A stretch of DNA of 64,000 bases. Source: Pocillopora damicornis. Its lineage: Eukaryota. Where the stretch lies: the NCBI RefSeq assembly GCF_003704095.1, contig NW_020846006.1, forward strand, positions 186,001 to 250,000. The letters run 5' to 3'. How positions within the stretch are numbered: position 1 is the stretch's first letter; each line of letters starts with the position of its first letter. Made by a program: the position numbers. Shown here piece by piece: positions 6,001-54,000 of this stretch.

Positions 6001-9000
6001 GAAGACACCTCGAAATTAGGTGTTACTGTGGGGGTCGTCGATTTCCGGTAACACATTTCCTCGTGGTACGTTTTACGGGAAATGAAAACATCATTATAAG
6101 GCACTTCATTTATCTATGGATACTTTCCATAAGAAAAAAACATTTTCCAGTATAATTGTCATGCTTTTTTTACCACATGTAAGTTGCCCTCGCCGCCTTC
6201 TACCAAACTATTCGGACTGAACAGTTTAATTTTGATTTGATTCTCCACCTTAAATATGGGGAATCTACGAAGGGTGATTTTTGCACAAATGTTAAATGTT
6301 TACTCGTTTTTGCTTGTTGTCGTTTCTTGAAGGTTCTATTCTTTGTTTAACTCTGGTATTCGAAAATTTACAGTGGTGACTATTAATCAACCGCACTCGG
6401 TATTGTGGTTCTGGTCTATAGAGTTATAGAGCACAGTAGTTCTTCAGTGTTAATTACGTTGGAAAGGAGGGTGAAAAAAACCTTTAATACGCAAACTAAC
6501 AAAGAAATAGTGGGCTCCTCTTTGATTCAAGAGGGCGAGTATTGAACTTCACTTTGAACTGATTATTTTGTAACAAACGTAACCAGTGTCGATTGACTTC
6601 GCAATAAAAGAGGTCGAGTTCAGCCACAACCCTAGTGTATATGTGTCGCTTGAAAATGAAAATTTTGAAGCCCTTTAGCTGTCCTGAAATGCAAATTATT
6701 CATTATTCCACGATGTTTTATGTCTTAAAATGTAGGGGGTGTTTCTAACGAGAAGGGTAACCATTAGGGCCCAGATTCAAAGAGGAATTTGAGGAGAAAG
6801 CAGGCAATTTAGAAATGACAAACTCAAGTTAATTGGAAACGTAGAAAGAGTTATAAATCACTGCAAACTTTTGCCTTTAGTTTATGTGGACATTGTTAAA
6901 AAGCCAAAACGAACAATGAGCACAAAACACTCCTTTTCTCTCCTTGATTAACTTAAGTGTCATACTCTCATCCTAGATACGATTCAAATGTAACTTCGAA
7001 GAAGTGATTTTGGAAAGCAAGCGAGTCTCCGGGAAAGGAAACGATCTCCCTAAAATAAAGAGGTATTATTGACTCCTGCATTTAAAGCACATAACATGAC
7101 GATGATTCAGACTTAGACGGTTTGACATCTAGATGGCACGTTAAAACTGTCATGAAAAGATTTTAGACTTACTACAGACCAGAACTAGCCACAGTGACCG
7201 AGTTTTCACCATTATTGTTGTAGTACATCCGATTAAATTTTTTGGCATGTAGCATTCGCTTTTGTCTAGGAACCATTACTCCTCTCTTAAATAGTTCGAT
7301 ACACACTCAATAATATTTCCTTCCTTAGATGGCTAGCACTGCTGCTTGGGTCGAAAAACAACAGAGAGAACCAAAAACTCATAAACACTCCTCGCAAGTA
7401 ACCTTCGCGGATATTTTTCCACTCTGTTTAGAACCCCACAGTTTCTTTAAGTGTGAAGTGCAGATTAGTTCTAAATTGAAAAGAATTACTGCCTATTAGA
7501 AGATGCCATTTTCACACCCTCAAATGTTGCCGCAAGGTTCCTAGAGCATTAAAAAGTAGACGCGCTGGCGACTGAGGTGCGAAAGAAGCCAGTTCAACAA
7601 TACACAGCCGGGATGATGCAAGAAATCTCTTGTTTTCGTTTTGAAAACACCACTTTTGTCTGACGTACTTGACTGTCAAGCCTGTCGAAATAGCTTTCGG
7701 ATTTTCACGTTTCTAGTAAAATTGGAGAAGTTTATCATATGTATTAGATGATTAATACGCAGAAGTTTCTGAATTGTTAAAAGAAAGTGAGAAGCGAAGG
7801 GTTTTTCCTGAATATTCTAAGGTAACAAAACAGGATCAGCAGTGTTCGGTTTTTTCAACATTTAATAACTGAATGTGGATTAAGTCAAATCGTTTGTTGA
7901 TCCTCGGGCCGTTCCTTGGTTTTGACGCTTACTGTTTGCTAGTTTATCAGAGAATTCGGAGGAACCAAACTGAATGTATGATGGTTATGATACATAAAAT
8001 CACAGATAAGAACTCCAACAAAACAAATGAGGAGAATGCAGAACGAGCCAGTAGAGGCCAGCATGGCTTCGATACGGATATTAGGGCCACGATTTAAGGT
8101 CATCGTCATCTCTAAAGATGAAATGAATGAATGCATATCTCAAGAAATGTAGAGTTGATTTTTTGATCCATATCTGTTCACATGAATGGGAATAGGAACA
8201 ACAAGTTTAGGAGCGTGAAGCTTTCTGTTTCCATGAGCTTGAGGTCCACCGAGAGTCCTTACTCTCTTCCATTTCGCTCGTCTGTTCTGAAACCAAATTT
8301 TCACTTGAACCTCGCTGAGTTTTAAAGTTCTTGCAATGTGTGATCTCTCTTCCAGTGAAAGGTACTTTTTGGTGTGAAATTCTCGTTCAAGTTCTAACAG
8401 TTGTTGGCTTGTAAAAGCCGTTCTTTTCCGTCTGGATTTGGTTCCTCCCTCGGAGTCTGAATTTTGGTCTTCTTGTTCGTCCTCATCACTCCCAGTTGGT
8501 GAATTTGGATGAGCTTTGCCACTAAAGCCTAGTAGAGGAAAATGGGCATCAAATAGATAATAAAAGCAGTACATTTAACTTAATCAGTAATTGTCAATTT
8601 CCTAACACAGAAGCTTTATTGACCACGCAGTAAACGAGGAAAGAACCGGCACATGAACATCATGGGAGGACCAAAAATTCCATAAGGTCTTTAAGAACAT
8701 AGCTTTTATAATTAGAATAAATGCAGTAAAAATTTCCTTTAGATAAATGTTGAATAACGCTGGATACCTCTCCTAAAAATAAAGTTGTTAAGAGCAATTC
8801 CAGCGTGAAGCAGTTTCTAATACATTCCTCTCTGGATATCGAATCCAATTACTACAGCAACATATAGAACAGAACACTCACTTGTTGGCGAGGAGGGGAA
8901 ATGATCCATTACGTTCTCTCTACGAAAATGTTTGTCCAATTTTTCTTCCTCCATTTGAAATACAGAGACTGTCCTGTCCGAATAGATCCCATCGCCCCGC

Positions 9001-51000: not shown

Positions 51001-54000
51001 CTCTTGCACAATACAGCGCACAGAAGTATGTTATTAACCTTGGCTTACCTTGCAATAGGAGACCATTCGCAACACATAAAAGTCTTAAGATCATACAAAT
51101 TAATTGACCAATGTCCTCTTAAGTTTACTGATTAAACCTATTTTATCAAGAGTTCACTGCTTAACTGGCTTCTTTATTGCTGTTTAGTGAATATAGCTTG
51201 ACCCCCTTGACACCCTCTTATATCCTTTCAGCAAGAGGGAAATCCCTCCTTTATAATTACTAAAGCAGATGCTAATTATTTCATTACATACATATTTGTG
51301 TACATATGTATATATTTGGGTTATTAAGCAAGAATGATGCCCGTTAGTAAAGAAATATTATATGCTGTTTAATTGTATTTCTGTAATGTGCGAATTGTTA
51401 TGTAAATGCTATTTAGGTTGAAGCCTTAGTTGGACGAATTGAACGCATTCGTCACTCTCCTCTCCATGTCAGCATTAGTGAGGGAGTTGATCTGTGGCAC
51501 AATGGAATTCGTGAATTGCAGAATCGTAGGAGGGAGGAACTTAGTAGCAGTAATTGCTCAAGAAGTAGGCTGAATGGTTCTCTACGGAATCAAGATATTA
51601 CAGGTATTGTCAGTTTAATTCCTTCAAGAAAGACTTCAAATCTCTGAAGTTAAACAAGAAAGGGACTGTTAGCCAGGAAGACCCACTGATGAAATTTTTA
51701 AGGGGAATCTAGTAAATTGTTTATCTAGTATGGAGGTAGACAATATCACTGAGCAGATTGGAGACCGAAGTGTTCTGAACAAGCCACTTAATTAAAAAAA
51801 AGCCATTAAAAATTAAAAGCAAAAACACAAACATTGGACTCTGAATAAATAGTATCAGTGAAATCTCTCTAGGAACAGGTTACCGCAAATTTTCCCCAAA
51901 AAATGTAATCTTGAAAACTTCAGGGTAGGCAATTGGTAACAACGTCAAGGCTAGTACAACTACAGAATAACTACTTGCAAATAGCCTTTAACTGTGAGCA
52001 AATAGGATTGGTACTAATGGTATTCCCATCCATTTTTACATAGCTGTATGGAATGAGCCAGTGTGTTAAATCTGTGTACAGTAATTTACATCAACTATTT
52101 GTGGATGGAAGATCAGAATTAGCTTGTTTGAGTTTGTTATCTGTTATCCTAGTGTCTTATGCTTAAAAAAAACCTGACTCACTTGTGATTCTATGATAAG
52201 CCATATACAAGCTTGTATCCAAGTTAGCTTTTTTTACTGCAGTTGTTGACCCACATCATAAATATGTAATGATAAGCATCATGATTTTTCTCATTTATTT
52301 CCGTTTATTTATGTATTTGTTTGTTTGTTTTAATCCTTCACAGAACTCTCAGCCTTAGTATCAGCTGTGAAGACACTGACACAAAACACACGTGCAACCC
52401 GTACAATCATTTGGTGTGCTAATCAGCTTGTCATTGGTGATACTGCAGTTAATGACAACACTTCAAATGATGTGGACAACACAGTTGTGATATCCAAGGA
52501 AGTCATTGTGGATGTGTCTTGACAGATTGCTCATACATTTAGATGGTTTCATCCCCCAACTATACTTGAAGTGTGTCACATAATTGGAAATGAATTCCAG
52601 TGGCATAAATTGGTTCAGTGCTACTGAGTATCATCAACCTTCCAACATTGTGGAGAAAATCTGGTAGATCTAACCTCAACACAAGACCCCTGACCTTTGC
52701 ATTGAAAAAAGGTGACAAGTTTGCAATCAATTATAAATTGAACTGAATCAAGGTGCATTATGGGAACAGTAATCTGGTAATAGAGAAATTCTGCTTGGCA
52801 ATGGTGCTTCAGGTTTTTTTCATTTGGGTTTCCAAGCAACATGTACTTAGTTGTAAGAATGACTGAAGCAGGAGTCAAAGGAGGAAAGAATTTTTTATAT
52901 GGCAAAGCAAGTGAACCTTGCAGTGTAAAGTACTGCCTAACTAATTGGATTTTAAGTGTTTTTCCACATTTATGGTTCAAGAAATGCATTGAAGCTAGCA
53001 AGATAAAGGCATCAATTATGTCTATCAATCATTTTGAGAAAGAATTGGCAAAGAACACTGAGGGTGTTAGAATGGTTGATATTGAATACAATTATGAATG
53101 TAACTTCCCACACTTAGCTTCAGTGTGTCAGTGTTGCTAGGCAACAGACATTTTATAGCAGAAGATTGTACTTACTCAGGCAACCGATATTTTTCTTCTA
53201 TCATGCATTCCATTCATGCACCAGAATGTTCCAACAAATAAGTCACAGTTGTGCAATGGGTTGGGGAAGGTGAAAAGGAGTCTTGGCAGGCCAAGTGTTT
53301 CTTACTAGTGAATAAATGAAAGGAAACATGGCAGACACAACATTTTGAATAATTTGTGCAACTTTGTGTTGCTCTAAGCAGAGTTCACTTATTTGTGTCC
53401 TAAGAAGACTAATGAAATTTTCTCATTAATCACCACCTTCCCAACCTGGTAACTCTACTCATGTCATCCATCATTAATGAAACAAATCAGGTTAATCATT
53501 TCTGATAATTATTCTGCACACTTAGTTTCTGGCGATAAATAATTCATCTCATTGAAGATTGGCAAATAAGTGCAGCTTAACATATTGTTACATCCATGAC
53601 AAGTGTTCATCAATTTACAGTCCAGCTTTTGAAGCACTTTCTGACTGTAGATAAGTCTGCAACAAGAATAGCATGTGTAACCACCAACGTGACAGGAGGC
53701 AGTGCTTGTATGGAGAAAATTCTAAGCCAGTTCATATTGCTTTACTGCTGAATACATCCAGACATCTTCCAATGGAAATGTTCCAAAAATAAAAGCGCAT
53801 TATTTCGTTGAATTGTTTGTTGTTGTTTAGCTATGTTCAAGTATGTTCAAGTCTTGATGCTGTTTGTTTATTTGTTAGGAGTATAAACCTTCAACTTGAA
53901 CATTTTCCATCTTTTTGCCTTTTCTTTTTAAAGGCCTGTTACATACTATTTGGTAATCTCCATCACTTGGCCTTCAAATTAGATGAAGCCAATTGGACTC

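What the first reader, a model, noticed from the sequence alone, without database searches (positions are those of the whole stretch)
8140..52522. Neighbouring genes map to the human Hox/EN/GBX paralogon
Established human locations: GBX1 and EN2 7q36, GBX2 and EN1 chromosome 2, GATAD1 and SLC25A40 7q21, SLC25A39 and MEIOC 17q21.31 near HOXB. Seen: Gbx, the En-like gene, GATAD1, SLC25A39/40 and MEIOC are consecutive here. Inference: the block belongs to the ancestral Hox-bearing linkage group, where an engrailed locus is expected and where NK-cluster genes such as Tlx or NK6 are not. This is independent support for the En hypothesis, and SLC25A39-MEIOC may be an old microsyntenic pair.
[Added by the scan's program, not by the reader: the finding's places include an assembly gap (unread letters, written N; its length is only estimated) at 13788 to 13797, 24222 to 24302, 29519 to 29618. 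Whether the letters on both sides are continuous or in frame is not known: test that first.]
Basis: partly seen in the sequence, partly recalled or inferred. Interest (0 to 1): 0.65.

Follow-up and report, generated by a model that had tools for sequence, protein, structure and literature searches.

The report
Coral Gbx neighbourhood matches human Hox-linked regions
A stretch of coral genome carries Gbx, an engrailed/Abox-type homeobox gene, GATAD1, SLC25A39/40 and MEIOC in a row, and their human counterparts lie on the Hox-bearing chromosomes: an ordinary, mostly already described case of very old gene linkage.

Summary
The window is from a Pocillopora coral, not human.

The three N gaps do not undo the order:
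- 29519-29618 lies inside SLC25A39/40, and the exons on both sides are collinear. One exon of about 30 residues is unread.
- 24222-24302 is bridged by the same En-like/GATAD1/SLC25A40 order in Oculina, Desmophyllum and other Pocillopora assemblies.
- 13788-13797, between Gbx and the En-like gene, rests on this scaffold and one preprint.

The En-like gene has EH1 and EH2 motifs, but its homeodomain is not engrailed-type. It fits the anthozoan "Abox" gene, which a 2023 preprint already placed next to Gbx.

Papers confirm most of the human locations:
- GBX1 and EN2 at 7q36; GBX2 and EN1 on chromosome 2.
- GATAD1 at 7q21.2 and SLC25A40 at 7q21.12.
- SLC25A39 and MEIOC listed five genes apart in one gene run in pig.

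Placement in the Hox linkage group is supported. The claim that NK genes are excluded is not, and synteny cannot separate En from Abox. The close SLC25A39/40-MEIOC linkage is the only unprinted detail. Interest is low to moderate.

The parts
8140..8528 (-). Gbx exon 2 (homeodomain, stop codon at 8140-8142)
   Evidence: Pfam Homeodomain 85.1 bits. PDB best hit human GBX1 at 106.7 bits, next single homeodomain 65.5. Acceptor read from the sequence.
8882..9146 (-). Gbx exon 1 (start codon, EH1-type motif FSIESII), phase-1 donor
   Evidence: ORF. ATG and GTGAGT donor read. No Pfam family.
13788..13797 (.). Assembly gap (10 N) between Gbx and the En/Abox-like gene; intergenic
   Evidence: No repeat bridges the flanks. 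Only a preprint statement supports the join from outside: ABOX is adjacent to GBX in some cnidarians.
19112..19412 (+). En/Abox-like homeobox gene exon 1: EH1 motif FSIKNLL and EH2-type motif WPAWVYATRYSRHGIP; phase-1 donor
   Evidence: tblastn of P0001 residues 1-101 at 99%. The EH2-type motif is present in 7 of 10 aligned relatives.
21124..21455 (+). En/Abox-like gene exon 2: homeodomain (E17, E19, K28, R30, R52) and C-terminal tail
   Evidence: Pfam Homeodomain 71.3 bits, with no other family above its cut-off. 100% to P0001 residues 101-210. Residues read.
24222..24302 (.). Assembly gap (81 N) between the En/Abox-like gene and GATAD1; intergenic
   Evidence: Join supported by consecutive locus tags or accessions for En-like, GATAD1 and SLC25A40 in Oculina patagonica and Desmophyllum pertusum.
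25591..28216 (+). GATAD1, four coding exons (25591-25851, 26897-26959, 27713-27919, about 28035-28216)
   Evidence: Pfam GATA finger 31.4 bits. Exon search: 28 hits among 56 candidates. 13 of them carry a source name, and 11 of those 13 are named GATAD1. Exon map, stop codon.
29245..39239 (-). SLC25A39/40 (mitochondrial glutathione carrier family). Ten coding exons seen: 39239-39150, 38683-38624, about 35183-35052, 34259-34191, 33178-33053, 32752-32669, 32415-32314, 32029-31910, 29806-29732, 29379-29248. Tail to tail with GATAD1, about 1 kb apart.
   Evidence: tblastn of P0013, P0012 and P0019. 16 hits among 53 candidates. All 6 that carry a source name are SLC25A40 or SLC25 member 40. Weak Pfam Mito_carr match on one exon.
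29519..29618 (.). Assembly gap (100 N) inside SLC25A39/40, between the ninth seen exon and the last exon
   Evidence: Reference residues 269-298 have no match in the read sequence. Residues on both sides match at 100% in order. Not filled.
48725..52522 (+). MEIOC: large exon (about 48725-49583) and three exons carrying the rest of the MEIOC domain (49809-49940, 51417-about 51602, about 52340-52522). Upstream exons not determined; ORF 47224-47526 is a candidate only. Head to head with SLC25A39/40.
   Evidence: Pfam PF15189 positions 5-29 (30.2 bits), 29-75 (43.2), 74-136 (30.7) and 134-163 (21.5, below the cut-off of 27), in order on one strand. ORF 47224-47526 has no Pfam match.
56137..58884 (-). 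Next gene outside the finding: pyruvate dehydrogenase phosphatase (PP2C), interrupted by the gap at 57355-57454
   Evidence: Pfam PP2C 104.2 bits. PDB PDP1 182.2 bits.

Best explanation
This is a real, contiguous piece of a Pocillopora chromosome. It carries the anthozoan Gbx gene and its neighbour, an En/Abox-type homeobox gene, followed by GATAD1, SLC25A39/40 and MEIOC. The order is inherited, not functional machinery. Anthozoan genomes rearrange slowly, so this fragment of the ancestral Super-Hox (EHGbox-bearing) linkage group has stayed together. Vertebrates spread the same genes over the duplicated Hox-bearing chromosomes 2, 7 and 17. Shown: gene identities, order, gap positions, the same En-like/GATAD1/SLC25A40 order in other corals, and most human locations. 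Inferred: that the linkage dates to the cnidarian-bilaterian ancestor, and that it was kept passively and not by shared regulation.
For: Organism and genes.

Gap tests:
- SLC25A39/40 spans the gap at 29519-29618 collinearly.
- GATAD1 and the last SLC25A39/40 exon lie on one contig.
- Oculina locus tags G025522, G025523 and G025524 are En-like, GATAD1 and SLC25A40. Desmophyllum accessions KAJ7381302, KAJ7381303 and KAJ7381304 give the same trio.
- P. damicornis tags pdam_00014663 and pdam_00014664 are GATAD1 and SLC25A40.
- In P. meandrina, P. verrucosa and Stylophora all three proteins come from contigs of one length. In Orbicella this holds for the En-like gene and GATAD1.

Linkage group:
- Nematostella Gbx is on chromosome 2 with the SuperHox genes.
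- 75% of genes on the Montipora Gbx scaffold map to Nematostella chromosome 2.
- ABOX is adjacent to GBX in some cnidarians, and Abox is counted as a Super-Hox family.

Human side:
- GBX1 7q36.1, EN2 7q36.3, GBX2 2q37.2, EN1 2q14.2, DLX5/6 7q21.3, MEOX1 17q21.31, HOXB 17q21.32.
- GATAD1 at 7q21.2.
- The 7q21.12 amplicon genes are listed as SRI, ADAM22, DBF4, SLC25A40, RUNDC3B.
- The pig list runs ADAM11, DBF4B, CCDC43, MEIOC, FZD2, GPATCH8, ITGA2B, FAM171A2, GRN, SLC25A39, RUNDC3A, with HOXB genes later in the same table cell.

Rough estimate (my inference, using recalled distances of about 0.3 Mb and 4.6 Mb): the chance that MEIOC falls within 0.5 Mb, and GATAD1 within 5 Mb, of one of the two SLC25A39/40 paralogues in a 3,100-Mb genome is about 4 in a million.
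Against: - The Gbx/En-like join crosses a 10-N gap. I could not check it in another assembly, and only a preprint statement covers it.
- The next neighbour, PDP, has human orthologues that I recall at 8q22 and 16q22, outside the Hox paralogon.
- The acyl-CoA dehydrogenase beyond it could not be assigned to a human subfamily.
- In Acropora cervicornis the GATAD1 and SLC25A40 accessions are seven apart, so the tight order may hold only for robust corals.
- In Acropora millepora the ABOX/GBX pair lies within 1.5 Mb of NK genes. The coral chromosome is therefore not purely 'Hox-type'.
- I made no chromosome-scale mapping of GATAD1, SLC25A39/40 or MEIOC in Nematostella, amphioxus or scallop.
Confidence: 0.75

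Rival explanations
1. The order is kept by regulation, not by inertia. Enhancers of the En/Abox-like gene or of Gbx lie within or beyond GATAD1 and SLC25A39/40, which act as bystander genes in a genomic regulatory block. Breaks between them are therefore selected against.
For: - The genes are tightly packed: about 4 kb from the En-like gene to GATAD1, and about 1 kb tail to tail from GATAD1 to SLC25A39/40.
- The same trio order occurs in at least four robust coral genera.
- SLC25A39 and MEIOC are still listed five genes apart in one run in pig.
Against: - Zimmermann et al. report short enhancer-promoter distances, little microsynteny and no clear domains in Nematostella.
- In mammals no En, Abox or Gbx gene lies near SLC25A39/MEIOC or SLC25A40/GATAD1.
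- I examined no conserved non-coding element or chromatin data.
Confidence: 0.2
2. The homeobox gene is a derived NK-type (Tlx-like) gene, and the block belongs with the NK cluster chromosome, not the Hox one.
For: - The best single-homeodomain PDB hit is chain 3a01_A at 63.8 bits. I recall this chain as Drosophila Clawless, a Tlx-family protein. TLX2 scores 52.9 and EN2 48.9.
- Automatic names of the linked paralogues are 'T-cell leukemia homeobox protein 3' in Orbicella and Nematostella.
- NK1, HMX, HHEX and NK7 lie within 1.5 Mb of ABOX/GBX in A. millepora.
Against: - The homeodomain has E19/R30. The preprint gives this as the HOX-like polarity. The four Tlx-type hits have R19/E30.
- It carries a WPAW-type EH2 motif 30 residues before the homeodomain.
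- In my tree the Tlx-type hits form a separate clade (94/93) away from it.
- Gbx itself is on the Hox chromosome in Nematostella.
Confidence: 0.1
3. Gbx is joined to the rest by a scaffolding error at 13788-13797, so the five-gene run is partly an artefact.
For: The join is a 10-N gap in non-coding sequence. No gene or repeat spans it. I could not look up Gbx neighbours in other assemblies.
Against: - The other two gaps inside the finding proved sound.
- A preprint reports ABOX next to GBX in some cnidarians and figures Acropora digitifera.
Confidence: 0.08

Closest known systems
Anthozoan ABOX-GBX pair (bioRxiv 10.1101/2023.03.14.532566; passages and section 12 read)
   Same: An anthozoan gene with EH1 and a WPAW-type EH2 motif, an E17-R52 salt bridge and E19/[RK]30, lying next to Gbx. 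Pocillopora damicornis was among the species searched there. The window's gene shows every one of these features.
   Different: In the passages I read, the preprint does not mention GATAD1, SLC25A39/40 or MEIOC. It stresses linkage to NK genes in Acropora, which this 64-kb window cannot show.
EHGbox / Super-Hox gene set (En, Mnx, Gbx and other Hox-linked ANTP genes)
   Same: A Gbx gene directly beside an En/Abox-type gene. The human members are at 7q36 and on chromosome 2. Abox, En, Gbx, Mnx, Nedx, Dlx and Meox are treated as Super-Hox families.
   Different: There is no Mnx, Hox, Dlx or Nedx gene in the window. The En-type partner lacks an engrailed-type homeodomain.
Metazoan ancestral linkage groups (Hox cluster on bilaterian ALG B2; Nematostella chromosome 2)
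   Same: Neighbours of a Hox-linked gene in a cnidarian have human orthologues on Hox-bearing chromosomes, as macrosynteny predicts.
   Different: I tested only a handful of genes, by recalled or printed human bands. ALG assignment of GATAD1, SLC25A39/40 and MEIOC was not made, because the marker tables are in supplements that are closed.
Human paralogous blocks 7q21.12 (ADAM22, DBF4, SLC25A40, RUNDC3B) and 17q21.31 (ADAM11, DBF4B ... MEIOC ... SLC25A39, RUNDC3A)
   Same: SLC25A39/40 and MEIOC lie close together in coral (adjacent, head to head) and in a mammal (same list run, five genes between).
   Different: No ADAM, DBF4 or RUNDC3 gene is in the window. The mammalian pair is not adjacent. 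The 7q21 copy has no MEIOC in the listed amplicon.

Membership tests
Gbx homeobox family | Gbx-type homeodomain, clearly closer to GBX than to any other family | tested here: met
   106.7 bits to human GBX1; the next single homeodomain is HOXB1 at 65.5. The sequence reads L28, E19 and E30 (alignment), which the preprint lists for Gbx.
Engrailed (En) family | EH1 and EH2 motifs upstream of the homeodomain | tested here: met
   FSIKNLL and WPAWVYATRYSRHGIP lie in exon 1, 30 residues before the homeodomain. The preprint states that EH2 begins with WPAW.
Engrailed (En) family | Engrailed-type homeodomain (E28; no E17-R52 salt bridge) that scores best to En | tested here: not met
   The homeodomain has K28, E17 and R52. 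EN2 scores 48.9 bits and Drosophila En 46.9, against 63.8 for 3a01_A and 58.5 for BARHL2. None of 261 stored proteins, including the 150 best representatives, has a recalled engrailed-type recognition-helix motif.
Engrailed (En) family | Engrailed C-terminal signature after the homeodomain (I recall a Pfam model for it) | tested here: not met
   The Pfam scan of exon 2 at E<=0.01 returned only Homeodomain and Homeobox_KN.
Abox family (as extended to Anthozoa in the 2023 preprint) | E17-R52 salt bridge, E19/[RK]30, EH1 plus EH2, next to Gbx in cnidarians | tested here: met
   All these residues and motifs are present. Gbx is the neighbouring gene in this scaffold. Criteria taken.
Abox family | Groups with bilaterian Abox in a phylogeny | tested here: inconclusive
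   The tree had 47 homeodomain rows: 46 picked from the stored proteins plus the window's Gbx, with no En sequence available. The coral clade (95/94) joins a cnidarian-only paralogue clade (86/78). Its position relative to a bilaterian family that I take for Abox, and to the Noto-like and Tlx-like hits, is an unresolved fork. That bilaterian family occurs in echinoderms, chelicerates, an ostracod and a nematode, and one crinoid member has WPQWLY 29 residues before the homeodomain.
GATAD1 | Single N-terminal GATA finger plus the conserved C-terminal region; named orthologues | tested here: met
   GATA finger at 31.4 bits. The third exon finds GATAD1 of corals, echinoderms, brachiopod, annelids and bivalves at E 1e-11 to 1e-30.
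SLC25A39/40 (mitochondrial glutathione carrier) | Mitochondrial carrier repeats and orthology to SLC25A39/40 | tested here: met
   All 6 named hits of 16 are SLC25A40 or 'solute carrier family 25 member 40'. Ten exons are collinear with the 342-residue P. verrucosa protein. The exon near 35100 encodes four cysteines in a short run. I recall such a cysteine cluster as typical of this subfamily; not tested.
MEIOC | MEIOC domain (Pfam PF15189) | tested here: met
   Profile positions 5-163 of 166 are covered in order by four exons. Three of the four are above the cut-off of 27 bits.
Hox-bearing ancestral linkage group (bilaterian ALG B2 / Nematostella chromosome 2) | Orthologues of the block's genes lie on the Hox-bearing chromosome in slowly evolving genomes | not testable with these tools
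   Only Gbx is documented (Nematostella chromosome 2; Montipora scaffold). The Hox cluster is tied to ALG B2. There is no eukaryotic genome collection with context here, and supplements are closed.
Ancient microsyntenic pair (SLC25A39/40 with MEIOC) | Adjacency or near-adjacency in two or more distant phyla | tested here: inconclusive
   Coral: adjacent on uninterrupted sequence. Pig: the same run of a candidate-gene list, with five genes between. No other phylum was examined.

The most novel reading that the evidence does not exclude
En/Abox-GATAD1-SLC25A39/40-MEIOC is a remnant of a microsyntenic block that flanked the EHGbox genes in the cnidarian-bilaterian ancestor and was held together by shared regulation. 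On this reading, the human 17q21.31 and 7q21 segments mark where an En/Abox-type gene once sat. The coral gene, with its EH1, EH2 and phase-1 intron before the homeodomain, stands for the undivided ancestor of engrailed and Abox.
Probability: 0.12. Interest if true: 0.5.

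Novelty: new member of a known kind. Interest (0 to 1): 0.27.

Why it matters
- It gives a small, well-anchored example of linkage between cnidarians and vertebrates around the Gbx/En-Abox genes.
- It shows that synteny cannot decide whether corals have an engrailed gene.
- It points to SLC25A39/40 with MEIOC, and GATAD1 nearby, as markers for tracing this part of the Hox-bearing chromosome in other animals.
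- None of this changes the current picture of animal chromosome evolution.

Tried and rejected
- Tree. A homeodomain tree meant to settle En versus Abox versus Tlx left the deep forks unresolved, and no En sequence was on hand.
- ACAD as a marker. I tried the acyl-CoA dehydrogenase at 61102-62804 as a sixth paralogon marker and dropped it. The middle-domain exon is closest to bacterial enzymes and, among human ones, to ACADL (68.4 bits). The C-terminal exon prefers bacterial enzymes and ACADSB.
- Gap flanks. Self-comparison of 1.2-kb flanks of all six gaps found nothing that bridges a gap.
- Intervening ORFs. Ten intergenic or intronic ORFs gave no Pfam match at E<=0.01 or 0.1.
- Histone signal. 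A histone 3' stem-loop hit has no histone ORF beside it.
- Engrailed intron position. The paper search returned four papers, none of use by their titles and abstracts. The comparison with the coral phase-1 intron stays untested.
- Nematostella orthologue. Its chromosome could not be named. P0010 and the paralogue P0203 share a contig length of 22,031,953, but no call ties that length to chromosome 2 or 5.
- Prior print. SLC25A39 with MEIOC returned two pig association studies only. GATAD1 + SLC25A40 + 7q21 returned none.
- Not used. Genome contigs holds only bacteria and archaea. Structure and complex prediction have no bearing on a linkage claim.
- Closed. Metagenome contigs, viral contigs and all supplementary files. 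The homeobox location table of Zimmermann et al., Table S2 of the Montipora preprint and the ALG marker lists may already hold the answer.

Full report
WHAT THE WINDOW IS. The window has 37.6% G+C, CpG observed/expected of 0.60, and six runs of N. The homeobox exon at 21117-21452 is 100% identical over 98% of its length to 'homeobox protein engrailed-1-B-like [Pocillopora verrucosa]'. The same protein is also filed for P. damicornis. The window therefore comes from a Pocillopora stony coral. I take no contig here for human. I never built or searched a joined coding sequence or protein. Exon maps come from full-length database proteins laid on the window with tblastn.

All five genes are present and consecutive.
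- Gbx lies on the minus strand, with exons 9146-8882 and 8528-8140. Its homeodomain scores 106.7 bits to human GBX1; the next best single homeodomain scores 65.5.
- The En-like gene lies on the plus strand, with exons 19112-19412 and 21124-21455, joined through a phase-1 intron.
- GATAD1 has four exons between 25591 and 28216.
Ten exons are collinear with the 342-residue P. verrucosa protein.
- MEIOC: positions 5-163 of the 166-position Pfam domain are covered in order by four plus-strand exons ending at 52522.
- Ten further ORFs from the intervals gave no Pfam match.

THE GAPS, TESTED FIRST AS ASKED.
- Gap 29519-29618 lies inside SLC25A39/40. Reference residues 244-268 match at 29806-29732, and residues 299-342 match at 29379-29248, both at 100%. 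Residues 269-298 match nothing that was read. One exon is therefore unread, and the two contigs are joined in the right order and strand. I did not fill it.
- GATAD1 and the last SLC25A39/40 exon share one contig. They lie tail to tail, about 1 kb apart. The rest of SLC25A39/40 and MEIOC share the next contig.
- Gap 24222-24302 is intergenic. Other assemblies support the join:
  - Oculina patagonica locus tags G025522, G025523 and G025524 are the En-like gene, GATAD1 and SLC25A40.
  - Desmophyllum pertusum accessions KAJ7381302 to KAJ7381304 are the same trio.
  - P. damicornis tags pdam_00014663 and pdam_00014664 are GATAD1 and SLC25A40.
  - In P. meandrina, P. verrucosa and Stylophora all three proteins come from contigs of one length. 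In Orbicella this holds for the En-like gene and GATAD1.
  - In Acropora cervicornis the GATAD1 and SLC25A40 accessions are seven apart.
- Gap 13788-13797 is intergenic, and nothing bridges it. The Gbx join rests on this scaffold and on a preprint statement that ABOX is adjacent to GBX in some cnidarians.

WHAT THE 'EN-LIKE' GENE IS. Exon 1 carries an EH1 motif (FSIKNLL). Thirty residues before the homeodomain it carries WPAWVYATRYSRHGIP. That motif is present in 7 of 10 aligned relatives. It is absent from the Nematostella orthologue and from two unnamed predictions with different N-termini.

The homeodomain itself is not engrailed-type.
- The best single-domain PDB hits are 3a01_A (63.8 bits), BARHL2 (58.5), Eve (54.7), PDX1 (53.4), TLX2 (52.9) and GBX1 (51.4), ahead of EN2 (48.9). 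The top row of that table is a tandem two-domain engrailed construct whose domains score 41.4 and 39.7.
- The domain has E17, E19, K28, R30 and R52.
- An exhaustive search of 1.84 billion representatives gave 17,642 hits at E<=0.001. I examined 55 of the 150 listed, those I picked as having a single matched stretch.
- In score order those hits were the orthologues, then a paralogue family with E28, then Noto-like proteins, then a bilaterian family that I take for Abox, then Tlx-like proteins.
- All the named members of the E28 family are cnidarian.
- None of 261 stored proteins has a recalled engrailed-type recognition helix.
- A 47-row tree groups the coral gene with the cnidarian paralogues (86/78) and leaves the deeper forks open.

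All of this matches a 2023 preprint, of which I read passages and section 12. It says:
- No convincing non-bilaterian engrailed has been reported.
- Anthozoan genes bearing EH2 come out as Abox orthologues, with the E17-R52 bridge and E19/[RK]30.
- Further anthozoan duplicates carry E28.
- ABOX lies next to GBX in some cnidarians.
- En and Abox may descend from one ancestral gene.

THE SYNTENY CLAIM.
- GBX1 7q36.1, GBX2 2q37.2, EN1 2q14.2, EN2 7q36.3, with DLX5/6 at 7q21.3, MEOX1 at 17q21.31 and HOXB at 17q21.32.
- GATAD1 lies within a 7q21.2 deletion.
- SLC25A40 is listed in the 7q21.12 amplicon as SRI, ADAM22, DBF4, SLC25A40, RUNDC3B.
- A pig study lists ADAM11, DBF4B, CCDC43, MEIOC, FZD2, GPATCH8, ITGA2B, FAM171A2, GRN, SLC25A39, RUNDC3A in one run, with HOXB genes later in the same table cell. 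That these genes lie at human 17q21.31 is my recollection.

The two human blocks are plainly paralogous. MEIOC sits between DBF4B and SLC25A39, so its closeness to SLC25A39/40 probably predates the vertebrate genome duplications. My rough estimate is that chance alone would place MEIOC and GATAD1 this near an SLC25A39/40 paralogue about four times in a million. This uses recalled distances and is an inference.

On the cnidarian side:
- Gbx lies on chromosome 2 of Nematostella with the SuperHox genes, while the NK cluster is on chromosome 5.
- 75% of the genes on the Montipora Gbx scaffold map to Nematostella chromosome 2.
- The bilaterian Hox cluster is tied to ALG B2.

- Abox is itself a Super-Hox family and lies beside En in two ambulacrarians. 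Linkage therefore supports 'En or Abox', not En in particular.
- NK genes are not excluded. NK1, HMX, HHEX and NK7 lie within 1.5 Mb of ABOX/GBX in Acropora millepora.
- The next gene in the window, PDP, has human orthologues that I recall outside the Hox paralogon.
- The acyl-CoA dehydrogenase after PDP could not be assigned to a subfamily.

MECHANISM AND NOVELTY. The most likely account is passive retention of a fragment of the ancestral Super-Hox-bearing chromosome in a slowly rearranging anthozoan genome. Regulatory entanglement is a weaker alternative that I did not test. The Gbx/Abox adjacency and the Hox-chromosome placement of Gbx are already in print. The GATAD1-SLC25A39/40-MEIOC run, and its echo at human 7q21 and 17q21.31, was not found in print. 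My two searches for it returned only two pig association studies and nothing. Supplementary tables that might list it are closed.

VERDICT. The finding is a new example of a known kind, of low to moderate interest.

Noticed in passing
window 23665-23773 (+): A decayed copy of the last 40 or so codons of the En/Abox-like homeobox exon. It is 73% identical over 119 bases to 21319-21436 and is now broken by stop codons. It looks like a relic of a partial tandem duplication 2.3 kb downstream of the gene.
   Followed up: partly
window 37743-37787 (+), inside an SLC25A39/40 intron: An Rfam histone 3' UTR stem-loop hit (36.3 bits, gathering score 34) with no histone ORF upstream. It is either a relic or chance.
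   Followed up: partly
P0098/P0011 (Orbicella), P0129 and P0209 (Oculina G025598, G025550), P0203 (Nematostella): A second homeobox family related to the En/Abox-like gene, whose named members are all cnidarian. It has E28 and an EH1 motif but no EH2. It is auto-named TLX3 or Hox-B7-like.
   Followed up: partly
P0010 (Nematostella orthologue, auto-named HMX3): The sea anemone orthologue keeps EH1, the homeodomain and the C-terminal tail. It lacks the WPAW-type EH2 motif that 7 of 10 aligned relatives, including all three named corals, carry.
   Followed up: no
window 56137-58884 (-) and 61102-62804 (-): Beyond MEIOC lie a pyruvate dehydrogenase phosphatase gene, split by the gap at 57355-57454, and an acyl-CoA dehydrogenase whose closest solved relatives are bacterial. 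A reverse-transcriptase fragment sits at 59576-59908 beside the gap at 59323-59422.
   Followed up: partly
window 8882/8528 and 19412/21124: Gbx and the En/Abox-like gene both have one phase-1 intron a short way upstream of the homeodomain. I did not test whether this position is shared with bilaterian En or Abox.
   Followed up: no
window 29940-30095 vs 60432-60592; 57458-57520 vs 46752-46814: Short inverted repeat copies (76% and 89% identical), probably transposon fragments. One lies next to a gap flank.
   Followed up: no
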